This document shows positions 54,001-57,000 of a stretch of 64,000 nt of DNA, piece after piece. Each line of letters begins with the position of its first letter. Positions within the stretch are counted from its first letter, which is position 1. A program made the position numbers. Where the stretch lies: IMG/VR virus record IMGVR_UViG_2877245776_000006, one strand, 5' to 3'. This DNA comes from a virus. Its lineage: Duplodnaviria > Heunggongvirae > Uroviricota > Caudoviricetes.

Positions 54001-57000
54001 ATTTCACCTGATAATACGCTTGGCTCAAGTGAGAATATTGGTGAACTTACGGTCTTGGTCTCGACAGTTTCAGAGTCAGTGCCAACATTATAAAGCTCAA
54101 CGAAAGCGGTCTTGATTTTCCGGGCCAGATCTTTTGCTGGCTCGCTTGCAATATCTTTCCCGATTTCTCGCAGCACAGAATGCAATGTATGAGCTGCTGT
54201 TTTCTGTACATCAGACGGTAAATCTTTAAATTCCATCGTCAGCCTCATCAGTCAGTGTTTCTGGCTAACCAGCAACGCGCGCCAGATTCGGTTTTAAACG
54301 TTTTGCTTTTGGTATACGTCATGGCGGTAAACGTTCCATCCTGGTTAGGGAACACGCCGCACACCAGAGATTCGTTGTTGCCAAGATCGATAGTATCCAT
54401 GCTGACCTCATTTCCCCTTAACGCCGGGGTGGCGGAACAAAAAACCTGCTGCATAGTTAAAGATTGAACCCTGCCGTCATGTTCTTACGCCTCGGGCTGG
54501 CTACTTAACCCCTGACCACTGTCTGGTAACTCGAAGTATTGCCCTGCATTCTGTGGGGCGGGGTGGGTTGACGCCTGAAACAATAGCATCATTATTTTTT
54601 TTGATGTAAATAGCATCGCTATTGTTTTTTGTTGGGGCAAGAAAAAACCACCCTAAGGTGGTTCTGTCGGCGGGAATAATTAACTGTTTTTGCCTGGATA
54701 CTGTCTTCGAGAATGCACAATATTTACTACTTCTATGCTTGATGCTGTTACTCGGTAAAGGATGATGTAGTTAGGATGAGTTACAATTTCACGAAGACCA
54801 AGAACTCGCTCGCTTGGAGGATACAGGTAAGGATGCTCTGTGAGCGGCAAAACGGATGTTTCAATTCGAATTTTCATTCTGCGTGCTGCCGCGGGATTTT
54901 CTTTAGCTATGTAGGCTACGATCTGGCGCAAATCATCACGAGCAGATGGTAGCCATAAAACGGGTAACATTATTCACCTCTGTGAGTTGCAGCAGCAATT
55001 TGGGCAATAATTTGTTCCATTTCCGCCATTACCTCATCATGCGGAATCGCCGGGCGGGGATCCGCGAGGCTTGCTGCTACTTTGGCCCGCAGCCATTCGT
55101 TGTAACTATTTTCTTGCTCAACTGTCTCAAATTCTGAAACCATTGGGGAAAGGACTGTACTCATTTTACATATCTCCTCTGATTTAGGCGCGACGGCCTT
55201 TTTGTGCAGCTAACCACCGCGCAACCGTACGATCCATTGATTCTTTTTTATCTTTCATCTCCTGAAGCATGTGTTCTTGATCTTCTTTCGGAAAAGCTCT
55301 GAACGTATGGATTAAATCTCGTTCCATCGGCTCTACGGCAAACGGTAGTTCATCCTCTGTTTGTTCTGTGTCTGCTGGTAATGCGACTATGTTATCTTGC
55401 TGTGGTTCTCGACAATACATCCTTGCAATTTGCAGCAAATCTACCATGTCTGGCCTGATTGACTCAGGGGGAACTTTCAGTAAGCCAGCAAACTTTAGAA
55501 CAGCCTCAAGGTTTAGTGGGGTTTGACCATTTAGGTAGTGACTTACCGCCCCTTGTGTTGAAAACCCCATAATTTCCGCCGCACGTTCCTGAGTCAATCC
55601 CAACTGAGATTTCTTTGCCATCCAGATTTCTTTCAGTCTTCTGGCGGCGTTGAGGTCGGTGTCTGACAATGATTTTCTTTTCATACATCCAATTCTAATA
55701 AGATTGCTAATCACTTTGAAATAGTATCACTATTTACTTTTAAAAATAACAGTGCTATTAATTATGCATTGGTAACACATCACATAGGGCGGATTATGAA
55801 TCTTGGAGAATATTTGCATCATTTTCATATAACCCAGAGTTCATTTGCTGAGATTGTTGGCGCATCCCAAGGGATGGTCAGCCACGTTATAACGGGGCGT
55901 GCAAAACTTACAGGAGAAAAAATATTACGTTGGTGTGAAGCAACGGGATGGGTGGTGACCCCACATGAGATTGACAGTAAAACCTACCCCAACCCAACTG
56001 ACGGCTTGCCTGCTGAGTTTCAGGCTAACACACAACCATCGGCGGGGGTTGATTCATGAAAATCAAGCATGAACACATCCGCATGGCGATGAAAGCCTGG
56101 GCGCATCCGGACGGTGAAAAAGTTCCGGCAGCTGAAATAACCAGGGTTTATTTCGAACTGGGAATGACGTTTCCGGTTCTGCATAACGACAGCAAGCACA
56201 ACACGCTTTATCTCAACACCCAAAAGATTTTCCGTTGGCTGGATAAAGACACCCCTGACGCTGTTGAAAAAATTCAGGCGTTGTTACCTGCGATCGAAAG
56301 GGCAATGCCACCTCCGCTGGTGGCTCGAATGCGCAGCCACAGTTCAGCTTATTTTCGGGAACTGGTGGAGACGCATGAACGACTGGTGAGAGACGCTGAT
56401 GATTTTGTCGCAGTGGCAATCGCCGGTTTCAATCAGATGAACCGTGGTGGCCCGGCAGGAAATGCTGTGGCAGTACATTGACTGACAATAGCCATATCGA
56501 ATCGCTCCCGGCAACTCGTGAGTAAAAAGATTCGGTATCAGAAGAGGTGAGTATGGCTAACGCCTGGCTCAGATTATGGCATGACATGCCAAATGACCCT
56601 AAGTGGCGAACAATTGCCAGGGTGTCAGGGCAGCCAATTGCAACAGTGATGGCAGTGTATATCCACCTCCTGGTGAGCGCGTCACGAAATGTCACGCGAG
56701 GTCACATTGATGTCACGACAGAAGATTTGGCAAGTGCGCTCGACGTGACAGAAGAGGTAATTGATTCAATTTTGCAGACGATGCAGGGGCGGGTACTTGA
56801 TGGTGATTTAATCACTGGATGGGAAAAACGCCAGGTGCTTAAAGAGGACAACGGCAATATTTCGCAAACCGCAAAATCTCCTGCAGAGCGCAAGAGGGCG
56901 CAGCGAGAGAGGGAAAGAAAGCGGGAACAAAATGGCGATTGTCACGGCGCGTCACGAAATGTCACGCACATGTCACGACGAGTCACGACAGATACAGATA

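What the first reader, a model, noticed from the sequence alone, without database searches (positions are those of the whole stretch)
54680..55684. Three-gene regulator/antitoxin/ParE-toxin module adjacent to a cro-like gene
The arrangement regulator (about 165 aa HTH), small antitoxin (64 aa), ParE-like toxin (96 aa), all co-directional and divergent from a cro-like gene, matches the paaR2-paaA2-parE2 architecture described in E. coli O157 prophages. Here the regulator occupies the position of the prophage repressor, which would link toxin control to the immunity switch.
Basis: partly seen in the sequence, partly recalled or inferred. Interest (0 to 1): 0.4.

Follow-up and report, generated by a model that had tools for sequence, protein, structure and literature searches.

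The report
Prophage repressor operon carrying ParE toxin-antitoxin
This is an intact regulator–antitoxin–ParE toxin operon in the repressor slot of a decayed lambda-like prophage of Shigella sonnei; it is a differently targeted relative of the paaR-paaA-parE systems already studied in E. coli O157:H7, so it is real but largely ordinary.

Summary
Three co-directional minus-strand genes are present: regulator 55184-55684 (166 aa), PaaA-type antitoxin 54970-55164 (64 aa) and ParE toxin 54680-54970 (96 aa). They diverge from a cro-like gene, a ydaT (CII-analogue) gene and O/P replication genes.

The toxin-antitoxin pair belongs to the PaaA-ParE family. It is closer to the CP-933M copy (ParE1 86%, PaaA1 77%) than to CP-933P (ParE2 67%, PaaA2 75%).

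The regulator is not an orthologue of PaaR1 or PaaR2. It shares only their C-terminal helices (52-56% identity). Its DNA-binding domain is a lambda CI N-terminal domain, and it has no S24 peptidase domain.

A matching operator set exists. A 15-bp palindrome, AATAG-N5-CTATT, occurs three times between the divergent genes and twice just past the parE terminator. The regulator's promoter places its start at the ATG, which implies a leaderless mRNA. A perfect YdaT operator lies at the cro/ydaT junction.

The proposed link between toxin control and the immunity switch was already shown experimentally for CP-933P (Jurenas 2021, mBio). This locus is therefore a heteroimmune new member of a known kind, conserved across S. 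sonnei and under strong purifying selection.

The parts
55184..55684 (-). Regulator gene (166 aa): lambda-CI-type N-terminal DNA-binding domain, disordered linker, and PaaR/DicA-type C-terminal two-helix domain. It functions as a CI analogue without a peptidase domain.
   Evidence: ORF. HTH_3 hit. Lambda CI NTD E=3e-9. BLASTP to CI residues 4-90 with no Ala-Gly or S24 domain. AF2 model has five helices at 8-90, a low-confidence linker (pLDDT <50 at 92-111; no helix until 119) and helices at 119-165. Foldseek to 1lmb/3kz3 gives TM 0.85-0.93. The C-terminal domain is 52-56% identical to PaaR2/PaaR1 and hits the DicA C-terminus.
54970..55164 (-). PaaA-type antitoxin gene (64 aa) with no DNA-binding domain.
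   Evidence: Pfam PaaA2 PF21217 at 81.9 bits. PDB 3zbe E=1.4e-23. 77% identical to PaaA1 and 75% to PaaA2. dN/dS 0.05-0.09.
54680..54970 (-). ParE-family toxin gene (96 aa). Its ATG overlaps the paaA stop codon.
   Evidence: Pfam ParE_toxin at 64 bits. PDB 5cw7 ParE2 E=6.7e-37. 86% identical to CP-933M ParE1 and 67% to ParE2. dN/dS 0.05-0.07.
54641..54668 (-). Intrinsic terminator closing the three-gene operon (AACCACC-TTAG-GGTGGTT followed by a T-run).
   Evidence: Inverted repeat I23. RNA fold -15.1 kcal/mol, z=-2.96. Conserved in E. coli relatives (alignment A2).
55692..55720 (-). PRM-like promoter of the regulator operon: -35 TTCAAA, 17-bp spacer, -10 TAGAAT. The -10 ends 7 nt before ATG 55684 and there is no Shine-Dalgarno sequence, so a leaderless mRNA is predicted.
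   Evidence: Promoter scan; sequence. Both hexamers and the distance to the ATG are invariant in four diverged loci (A1). Leaderless paaR2 and cI precedent in PMC8630535.
55745..55759 (.). Operator OR1 (AATAACAGTGCTATT), overlapping the -10 of PR.
   Evidence: one mismatch to AATAG-N5-CTATT. Conserved in A1.
55720..55734 (.). Operator OR2 (AATAGTATCACTATT), a perfect palindromic half-site pair that abuts the PRM -35 and overlaps the PR -35.
   Evidence: One of only two perfect sites in the 64 kb. Half-sites are invariant and the centre is variable in relatives.
55697..55711 (.). Candidate operator OR3 (AATAAGATTGCTAAT, 2 mismatches), overlapping the PRM -10 and spacer.
   Evidence: Lies 23 bp from OR2, which is lambda-like spacing. 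This is the weakest of the five sites and is inferred.
55733..55761 (+). PR-like promoter for cro-ydaT-O-P: -35 TTTACT, 17-bp spacer, extended -10 TGcTATTAA.
   Evidence: Read from the sequence. It has the same layout as the predicted PL. It was not reported by the simple scanner because position 6 of the -10 is A.
55796..56059 (+). cro-like gene (87 aa, HTH).
   Evidence: phrog_35 transcriptional repressor E=8e-17. 36% identical to the CP-933M cro-like protein and no match to CP-933P YdaS.
56049..56066 (.). YdaT operator OM (TTGATTCATGAAAATCAA), spanning the cro stop and the ydaT ATG.
   Evidence: The only perfect match to TTGATT-N6-AATCAA in the window. The motif was defined by footprinting in PMC9986795.
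56056..56481 (+). ydaT gene (141 aa), the CII analogue.
   Evidence: Pfam YdaT_toxin. phrog_163 CII-like activator E=3e-40. 86.5% identical to CP-933P-type YdaT.
54609..54623 (.). Operator OL2 (AATAGCATCGCTATT, perfect), overlapping the -35 of the predicted PL.
   Evidence: Conserved in A2.
54582..54596 (.). Operator OL1 (AATAGCATCATTATT, 1 mismatch), overlapping the -10 of the predicted PL.
54580..54610 (-). Predicted PL promoter towards ydfA: -35 TTTACA, extended -10 TGcTATTGT. The spacer is 19 bp here because of an 8-A tract; it is 17 bp in E. coli RMDEC465.
   Evidence: Sequence; alignment A2; tract lengths. The layout mirrors PR. The assignment is inferred.

Best explanation
This is the immunity region of a defective lambdoid prophage in the Shigella sonnei chromosome.

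The leftward 'repressor' operon encodes three proteins. The first is a CI-analogue regulator. The second is a PaaA antitoxin with no DNA-binding domain. The third is a ParE toxin.

The regulator is a chimera. Its N-terminal domain is of the lambda-CI type and most likely binds the 15-bp palindrome AATAG-N5-CTATT. A flexible linker joins it to the two-helix C-terminal domain shared with PaaR1, PaaR2 and DicA. That domain most likely mediates the higher-order oligomerisation needed for cooperative binding and for OL-OR looping; PaaR2 is an octamer.

Bound at OR1 and OR2, the regulator would shut off PR (cro-ydaT-O-P). Bound at OL1 and OL2, it would shut off PL (ydfA...). From OR2, next to the PRM -35, it would sustain its own leaderless transcript, which reads through paaA and parE to one terminator. 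Cro would compete for the same operators. YdaT, bound at its perfect operator at the cro/ydaT junction, would drive an alternative leftward transcript.

The TA pair is therefore expressed as cargo of the lysogenic-state operon, in the slot that rexAB occupies in lambda. It would act as an addiction module: loss of the region leaves stable ParE and labile PaaA.

Because the regulator has no S24 peptidase, the switch cannot be induced directly by RecA.

Shown here: gene content, homologies, the domain swap, operator placement and conservation, the terminator, and selective constraint. Inferred by analogy with CP-933P: which protein binds which site, leaderless initiation, bistability, toxicity and addiction.
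For: Gene order and overlaps. ParE and PaaA identity to solved ParE2 and PaaA2. Comparison with CP-933M and CP-933P proteins.

The regulator's NTD matches lambda CI NTD. The model shows five N-terminal helices, a disordered linker and two C-terminal helices. The CTD is shared with 132-aa PaaR1-like and 244-aa relatives (alignment A3) and with DicA.

Operators: only five sites with at most one mismatch occur in 64 kb (1.35 expected), and four of them flank this operon. The two perfect sites are OR2 and OL2. Perfect sites occur at both positions in all nine fetched loci with the 166-aa regulator, and at neither position in the CP-933P or CP-933M loci, whose regulators have other DNA-binding domains. 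Half-sites are invariant and centres variable across alleles that are 78% identical in protein.

The PRM -10 ends 7 nt from the ATG, and this is conserved. Terminator. YdaT operator, perfect and unique; motif from PMC9986795.

The experimental precedent for every functional step comes from CP-933P (PMC8630535).

dN/dS is 0.05-0.09. The exact regulator protein is found in S. sonnei 53G and in about 6000 index blocks. The module is intact in six S. sonnei genomes even though IS1 has remodelled the left arm 0.8 kb away.
Against: No experiment exists on this allele.

OR3 is weak (2 mismatches) and only two OL sites are visible.

The PL spacer is 19 bp in this window, so PL may be crippled.

The promoter scans are no richer than shuffled sequence overall (3 found against 2.8 expected), so the promoter calls rest on position and conservation.

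A promoter-like site inside the regulator gene (55597-55569) could give regulator-independent TA transcription.

The prophage is a remnant: the left arm is cut by IS1 and no integrase is visible. The 'lysis-lysogeny' meaning of the switch is therefore vestigial.

The cellular target of this ParE clade is unproven even for ParE2.
Confidence: 0.85

Rival explanations
1. The paaA-parE pair is an autonomous two-gene type II module (a moron) that merely sits downstream of an unrelated prophage repressor. It would be transcribed mainly from its own promoter and autoregulated by the PaaA-ParE complex, so calling it a 'three-gene module' overstates the link.
For: A sigma-70-like site lies inside the regulator gene on the correct strand (TTGACT-17-AATTAT, 55597-55569). 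In CP-933P the TA genes are transcribed in both switch states, and the PaaA2-ParE2 complex is reported to contribute partial repression (review PMC4803016). The same slot carries unrelated cargo in relatives: HipA_2 plus DUF3037 and rexAB in lambda. This fits an insertion of foreign cargo.
Against: Only 19 bp separate the regulator from paaA, with no terminator between them, and a single terminator follows parE. PaaA has no DNA-binding domain. The internal promoter-like site is within chance expectation. In O157:H7 the three genes are co-transcribed, and PaaR2 is required for full repression and for post-segregational killing.
Confidence: 0.12
2. The TA pair works mainly as an anti-phage (abortive infection or exclusion) cargo expressed from the lysogenic operon, like rexAB, and not as an addiction or stabilisation module.
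For: It occupies the same position as lambda rexAB (PMC9986795). In relatives with a related regulator the slot holds a PADLOC candidate defence pair, PDC-M66A/B. The same prophage remnant also carries a type II R-M system.
Against: No PADLOC model matches ParE, PaaA or the regulator. The only experimental phenotypes for the family are plasmid stabilisation and post-segregational killing. No defence phenotype is reported in the papers read.
Confidence: 0.1
3. The module is a decaying relic of a dead prophage with no current function.
For: The left arm is truncated by IS1 about 0.8 kb from parE. The PL spacer is lengthened to 19 bp. The host is IS-rich S. sonnei, which is undergoing genome decay.
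Against: All five regulatory and TA ORFs are full length. dN/dS is 0.05-0.23. The operators, terminator and YdaT site are intact. The locus is base-for-base identical in two of the five other S. sonnei genomes compared (L008 and L011); in three of the others (L006, L007, L009) the difference in length of the poly-A tract alone shifts the ungapped comparison and could account for the counted mismatches; L010 also differs near the start of the compared stretch, and no gapped comparison was made.
Confidence: 0.04

Closest known systems
paaR2-paaA2-parE2 / ydaS-ydaT immunity region of cryptic prophage CP-933P (Sp12), E. coli O157:H7 (Hallez 2010; Jurenas 2021, PMC8630535)
   Same: Same gene order and strands: regulator-antitoxin-toxin divergent from cro-analogue, ydaT and O. 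PaaA is 75% and ParE 67% identical; YdaT is 86.5% and O 97% identical. The regulator C-terminal domain is homologous (52%). The YdaT operator motif is identical. Both show a leaderless-type promoter geometry and operator sets on both sides of the operon. Neither regulator has an S24 peptidase domain.
   Different: The regulator's DNA-binding domain is unrelated: lambda-CI type here, and 166 aa against 123 aa. The Cro analogue is unrelated. The operator sequence is different (AATAG-N5-CTATT against a GTTTAGTAA-type half-site), and the motif is absent from the CP-933P-type locus. I see three OR sites where four inverted repeats were reported there, and two OL sites where three were reported.
paaR1-paaA1-parE1 of cryptic prophage CP-933M, E. 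coli O157:H7
   Same: This is the closest TA pair: ParE 86% and PaaA 77% identical. The regulator CTD is 56% identical over 64 aa, YdaT 81%, and the cro-like protein 36% over 67 aa. The left-arm neighbours are the same (ydfA/DUF1391, dicB in relatives).
   Different: PaaR1 is 133 aa with a different helix-turn-helix domain. The AATAG-N5-CTATT motif is absent from that locus.
Lambda cI-rexA-rexB with OR/OL and PRM/PR/PL
   Same: The regulator NTD is homologous to CI NTD (31-40% identity, same five-helix fold, basic N-terminal arm). The three OR sites are 23-25 bp apart and straddle divergent promoters. OL sites lie beyond the cargo genes. The repressor mRNA is leaderless. Cargo genes are co-transcribed with the repressor.
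   Different: There is no S24 autocleavage domain, so RecA cannot induce it directly. Oligomerisation is through a short helical CTD. The cargo is a TA pair and not RexAB. CII is replaced by the unrelated POU-type YdaT. The operator sequence is different.
DicA (Qin) and RacR-YdaS-YdaT (Rac) regulators of E. coli K-12 cryptic prophages
   Same: The regulator CTD hits the DicA C-terminus (NCBIfam PRK09706, positions 74-130 of 135, E=7e-8). The ydfA/ydfB/ydfC/dicB left-arm context is the same in relatives. YdaT family member.
   Different: As far as I recall, K-12 Qin and Rac carry no paaA-parE pair behind the repressor gene; this was not checked here. The DNA-binding domains differ.
Classical parDE type II systems (RK2, Vibrio cholerae parDE2)
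   Same: ParE-fold toxin encoded immediately after its antitoxin, with translational coupling.
   Different: ParD antitoxins carry their own ribbon-helix-helix DNA-binding domain and autoregulate. Here DNA binding is delegated to a separate prophage repressor.

Membership tests
PaaA-ParE type II toxin-antitoxin pair | Toxin with the ParE (RelE/ParE superfamily) fold | tested here: met
   Pfam PF05016 at 64.1 bits (cut-off 23), covering 89 of 89 profile positions. phmmer to ParE2 structure 5cw7 E=6.7e-37. 86% identical to ParE1 and 67% to ParE2.
PaaA-ParE type II toxin-antitoxin pair | Small PaaA antitoxin without a DNA-binding domain, encoded directly upstream of the toxin | tested here: met
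   Pfam PaaA2 PF21217 at 81.9 bits (cut-off 27). 3zbe E=1.4e-23. It is 64 aa and its stop overlaps the parE ATG.
PaaA-ParE type II toxin-antitoxin pair | ParE is toxic, and is neutralised specifically by its cognate PaaA | not testable with these tools
   Only inferred from homology and from dN/dS 0.05-0.09.
Three-component paaR-paaA-parE operon (Hallez 2010) | Regulator gene immediately upstream, co-directional, in one transcription unit with the TA genes | tested here: met
   The gap is 19 bp with no hairpin between the genes, and one terminator follows parE. Co-transcription itself was not measured.
Three-component paaR-paaA-parE operon (Hallez 2010) | Regulator homologous to PaaR1/PaaR2 over its length | tested here: not met
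   Only residues 103-166 (PaaR1, 56%) or 123-166 (PaaR2, 52%) align. The N-terminal 100 residues have no match to either. It is therefore PaaR-like in position and C-terminal domain only.
Lambda CI / LexA-type (S24) autocleavable repressors | HTH N-terminal domain of the lambda-CI type | tested here: met
   phmmer to 1lmb E=2.9e-9. Foldseek TM 0.85-0.93 and 37-40% identity to lambda CI NTD chains.
Lambda CI / LexA-type (S24) autocleavable repressors | C-terminal S24 peptidase domain with an Ala-Gly site and a Ser/Lys dyad | tested here: not met
   No Peptidase_S24 hit. The protein ends at residue 166. The alignment to CI shows no Ala-Gly and nothing aligned beyond CI residue 144. The predicted CTD is two helices.
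CP-933P-type lambdoid immunity switch (Jurenas 2021) | Divergent cro-analogue plus ydaT (CII analogue), followed by replication genes | tested here: met
   YdaT is 86.5% and O 97% identical to the CP-933P-type locus of phage Evi.
CP-933P-type lambdoid immunity switch (Jurenas 2021) | Repeated operators overlapping divergent promoters, plus a second operator set (OL/PL) beyond the TA genes | tested here: met
   Sites lie at 55697, 55720, 55745 and at 54582, 54609. Sites with at most one mismatch number 5 against 1.35 expected in 64 kb. They are conserved in relatives and co-vary with the DNA-binding domain. Protein binding was not tested.
CP-933P-type lambdoid immunity switch (Jurenas 2021) | Leaderless regulator mRNA | tested here: inconclusive
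   The -10 TAGAAT ends 7 nt before the ATG, there is no Shine-Dalgarno sequence, and the geometry is conserved. 5' RACE is needed.
CP-933P-type lambdoid immunity switch (Jurenas 2021) | YdaT operator TTGATT-N6-AATCAA at the cro/ydaT junction | tested here: met
   A perfect match, unique in the window, at 56049-56066. The motif comes from PMC9986795.

The most novel reading that the evidence does not exclude
The most novel reading has three parts.

First, the repressor-adjacent slot of this prophage lineage would be a general exchange point. Here both the repressor's DNA-binding head and the downstream cargo are swapped around a constant C-terminal oligomerisation module. The heads seen are the lambda-CI type, the PaaR1 type, or both in tandem in 244-aa forms. 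The cargoes seen are paaA-parE and HipA_2/DUF3037 (PDC-M66).

Second, in S. sonnei the ParE cargo would actively protect the immunity region from IS1-mediated deletion, which has removed the neighbouring left arm up to 0.8 kb away.

Third, the variable poly-A tract in the PL spacer (6-9 A) would tune expression of the residual left operon.
Probability: 0.25. Interest if true: 0.4.

Novelty: new member of a known kind. Interest (0 to 1): 0.2.

Why it matters
It shows that the 'TA wired into the prophage immunity switch' design described for E. coli O157:H7 is not tied to one repressor. The same PaaA-ParE cargo and the same C-terminal oligomerisation module are combined with a different, lambda-CI-type DNA-binding head, a different Cro and a different operator. 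This is the pattern expected if immunity specificity is exchanged by recombination while the TA pair stays linked.

It also gives a clean natural test system for the proposed role of this TA family. The module is fixed in the clonal pathogen S. sonnei, next to IS1-driven deletions. That setting allows a direct test of whether the TA pair stabilises the immunity region of cryptic prophages.

Beyond that it is an ordinary, already explained kind of locus.

Tried and rejected
- A scan of GTDB species genomes with the single regulator protein confirmed no locus. The source organism was obtained instead from the protein search and the exact-sequence look-up.

- My first operator pattern had the wrong central spacing (N4 between 6-mers) and gave only chance hits. 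The corrected 5-N5-5 pattern gave the result.

- Rfam found nothing credible in 53700-56700. The one sub-threshold hit scored 17 bits against a gathering score of 40.

- PADLOC has no model for ParE, PaaA or the regulator, so a defence role has no database support.

- The longer GTG start at 55714 (176 aa) was rejected. It lies inside the promoter and operator region. All relatives conserve MKRK at the N-terminus, which aligns with the basic arm of lambda CI, and RefSeq aa.

- A cleavable CI-type peptidase domain was rejected.

- The plus-strand promoter-like site at 54568-54595 was treated as chance. It points into the 3' end of parE, and the site count equals the shuffle expectation.

- I did not locate the PRE-like promoter upstream of the YdaT operator.

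- The full text of Hallez 2010 was not available. PaaR1/PaaA1/ParE1 were taken from the CP-933M region of strain ATCC 43894, which I take from memory to be EDL933 (this was not checked). The prophage was assigned from the map position (about 1.25 Mb) and from the statement in PMC8630535 that the second copy is in CP-933M.
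Full report
**Observation.**
- The toxin gene is at 54680-54970 (96 aa).
- The antitoxin gene is at 54970-55164 (64 aa). Its stop shares one base with the toxin ATG.
- The regulator gene is at 55184-55684 (166 aa from the ATG). A 19-bp gap carrying a Shine-Dalgarno sequence separates it from the antitoxin gene.
- On the other strand lie a cro-like gene (55796-56059, 87 aa), ydaT (56056-56481), an O-like replication initiator (56547-57617) and a DnaC/IstB-like loader (57624-58370).

Pfam assigns ParE_toxin (64 bits), PaaA2 (82 bits), HTH_3 (36 bits) and YdaT_toxin.

**Source and context.** The exact regulator protein is annotated in Shigella sonnei. It is encoded in S. sonnei 53G (HE616528.1) and in about 6000 index blocks of public assemblies. 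Left of the module lie ydfA (DUF1391) and a 125-aa phage ORF. Then comes an IS1 (about 52974-53741) fused to a fragment of ynfF. In 53G the same IS1 is followed by more left-arm genes (Rha, dicB). In other S. sonnei genomes the arm is deleted up to ynfF, as it is here. The locus is therefore a prophage remnant that has lost its left arm to IS1, while the immunity region is intact in all six genomes examined. It is base-identical to the window in two of them.

**Relationship to the known systems.** I took the CP-933P-type proteins from phage Evi, whose ParE is 100% identical to the crystallised ParE2. I took the CP-933M-type proteins from strain ATCC 43894.

| Window protein | CP-933M type (system 1) | CP-933P type (system 2) |
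|---|---|---|
| ParE | 86% | 67% |
| PaaA | 77% | 75% |
| YdaT | 81% | 86.5% |
| O | not compared | 97% |
| Regulator | last 64 residues only, 56% | last 44 residues only, 52% |
| Cro-like | 36% | no match |

The regulator's first ~90 residues are instead a lambda-CI N-terminal domain: phmmer E=3e-9, BLASTP 31% identity including the basic N-terminal arm, and Foldseek TM 0.85-0.93 at 37-40% identity.

The AlphaFold model (mean pLDDT 78) shows five helices at 8-90, a disordered linker (pLDDT below 50 at 92-111) and two helices at 119-165. There is no S24 peptidase domain, no Ala-Gly site, and no room for either. The C-terminal helices also match the C-terminus of DicA.

**Regulatory DNA.** A 15-bp palindrome, AATAG-N5-CTATT, occurs at 55745, 55720 and (weaker) 55697 between the divergent genes. 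It occurs again at 54609 and 54582, just beyond the parE terminator.
- With at most one mismatch there are five sites in the whole 64 kb, against 1.35 expected. Four of them are here. The only two perfect sites are OR2 and OL2.
- In three diverged E. coli alleles (regulator 78% identical in two; nearly identical in the third) the half-sites are invariant and the centre varies.
- Perfect sites are present at both positions in all nine fetched loci with the 166-aa regulator. They are absent from the CP-933P-type and CP-933M loci. The operator therefore co-varies with the DNA-binding head.

The promoters and other signals fit this operator layout.
- On the minus strand, -35 TTCAAA, a 17-bp spacer and -10 TAGAAT end 7 nt before the ATG, with no Shine-Dalgarno sequence. 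This geometry is conserved. It predicts a leaderless mRNA, as demonstrated for paaR2 and lambda cI.
- PR (TTTACT, 17 bp, TGcTATTAA) and the predicted PL (TTTACA, spacer, TGcTATTGT) have the same layout. One operator lies over the -10 and one over the -35 in each.
- A hairpin followed by a T-run ends the operon at 54641-54668 (-15.1 kcal/mol, z=-3).
- The footprinted YdaT operator, TTGATT-N6-AATCAA (PMC9986795), is present once and perfectly, at 56049-56066 across the cro stop and the ydaT start.

**Function.** For CP-933P, Jurenas et al. (PMC8630535) reported the following.
- PaaR2 is the CI analogue, YdaS the Cro analogue and YdaT the CII analogue.
- PaaR2 and YdaS compete for overlapping operators at PRM/PR and at PL.
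- The locus is bistable.
- The region stabilises an unstable plasmid, that is, it is addictive.
- PaaR2 lacks the autocleavage motif.

The window has every sequence element of that circuit, with a different recognition head and operator. The most likely mechanism is therefore the same circuit with a different immunity specificity. The TA pair rides on the lysogenic-state transcript in the slot that rexAB occupies in lambda. Binding assignments, leaderless initiation, bistability, toxicity and addiction are inferred and not shown here.

dN/dS of 0.05-0.09 for the regulator, paaA and parE against alleles with saturated synonymous divergence argues that all three encode functional proteins.

**Distribution.**
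- paaA-parE homologues are found in 842 of 5426 complete E. coli genomes.
- The 166-aa-regulator type is found, at 80% coverage or more, in 72 of them, including O104:H4 strains.
- Only two E. coli genomes carry a TA pair at least 99% identical to the S. sonnei allele. The best full-region match is 96.8%.

**Relatives of the regulator.** Alignment A3 shows three architectures around one C-terminal domain:
- a head of the PaaR1 type (132 aa);
- a head of the lambda-CI type (166 aa, as in this window);
- both heads in tandem (244 aa).

The 244-aa form sits in the same slot but is followed by HipA_2 plus DUF3037, a PADLOC candidate system (PDC-M66A/B), in place of paaA-parE. This supports a modular slot and cargo view. 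It is outside the finding proper.

**Verdict.** The system is a heteroimmune relative, closer to system 1 in its TA pair and chimeric in its regulator. The conceptual point, toxin control tied to the immunity switch, is already published. I rate it a new member of a known kind, with an interest of about 0.2.

Noticed in passing
window 54593-54602 (poly-T on the plus strand, between OL1 and OL2); loci L001, L006-L011: A homopolymer tract inside the predicted PL spacer differs in length between otherwise near-identical loci. It is 6 in E. coli RMDEC465, 7 in S. sonnei 53G and L007, 8 in the window and three other S. sonnei genomes, and 9 in L006. This changes the PL spacer from 17 to 20 bp and the operator phasing from 25 to 28 bp. 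It could be slipped-strand variation or long-read homopolymer error.
   Followed up: partly
proteins P0013-P0023; loci L012-L015 (for example L012:5001-7360): The 244-aa relatives of the regulator carry two HTH heads in tandem (lambda-CI type plus PaaR1 type) before the shared C-terminal helices. The window's 166-aa protein equals this form minus the inner head. They occupy the same repressor slot next to cro-like and ydaT genes. They are followed by HipA_2 (PF20613) and DUF3037, which match the PADLOC candidate system PDC-M66A/B, in place of paaA-parE.
   Followed up: partly
window 60184-63095 (+): The right arm of the same prophage remnant encodes a type II restriction-modification pair: an Eco57I/N6_Mtase-type methyltransferase (610 aa; PADLOC MTase_II at 996 bits) and a BsuBI/PstI-type endonuclease (360 aa). 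Their coding sequences overlap by 4 bases.
   Followed up: partly
window 38875-47295 (+): A 2806-aa 'large polyvalent protein' (LPD38, LPD5, LPD1 and MuF_C domains) lies in the neighbouring, apparently more complete prophage that fills about the first 51 kb of the window.
   Followed up: no
window 47400-53741: The neighbouring prophage ends with Ead/Ea22-like and AntA/P22AR-type antirepressor genes (48704-49678 and 50191-50976, minus strand), next to a fragment of ynfF (51892-52893). An IS1 (about 52974-53741) joins that fragment to the truncated left arm of the second prophage. In S. sonnei 53G the same IS1 is followed by further left-arm genes, which suggests a deletion between IS1 copies.
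   Followed up: partly
window 55569-55597 (-): A sigma-70-like site (TTGACT, 17 bp, AATTAT) lies inside the regulator coding region, on the operon strand. It could give regulator-independent transcription of paaA-parE. The count of such sites equals chance expectation.
   Followed up: no
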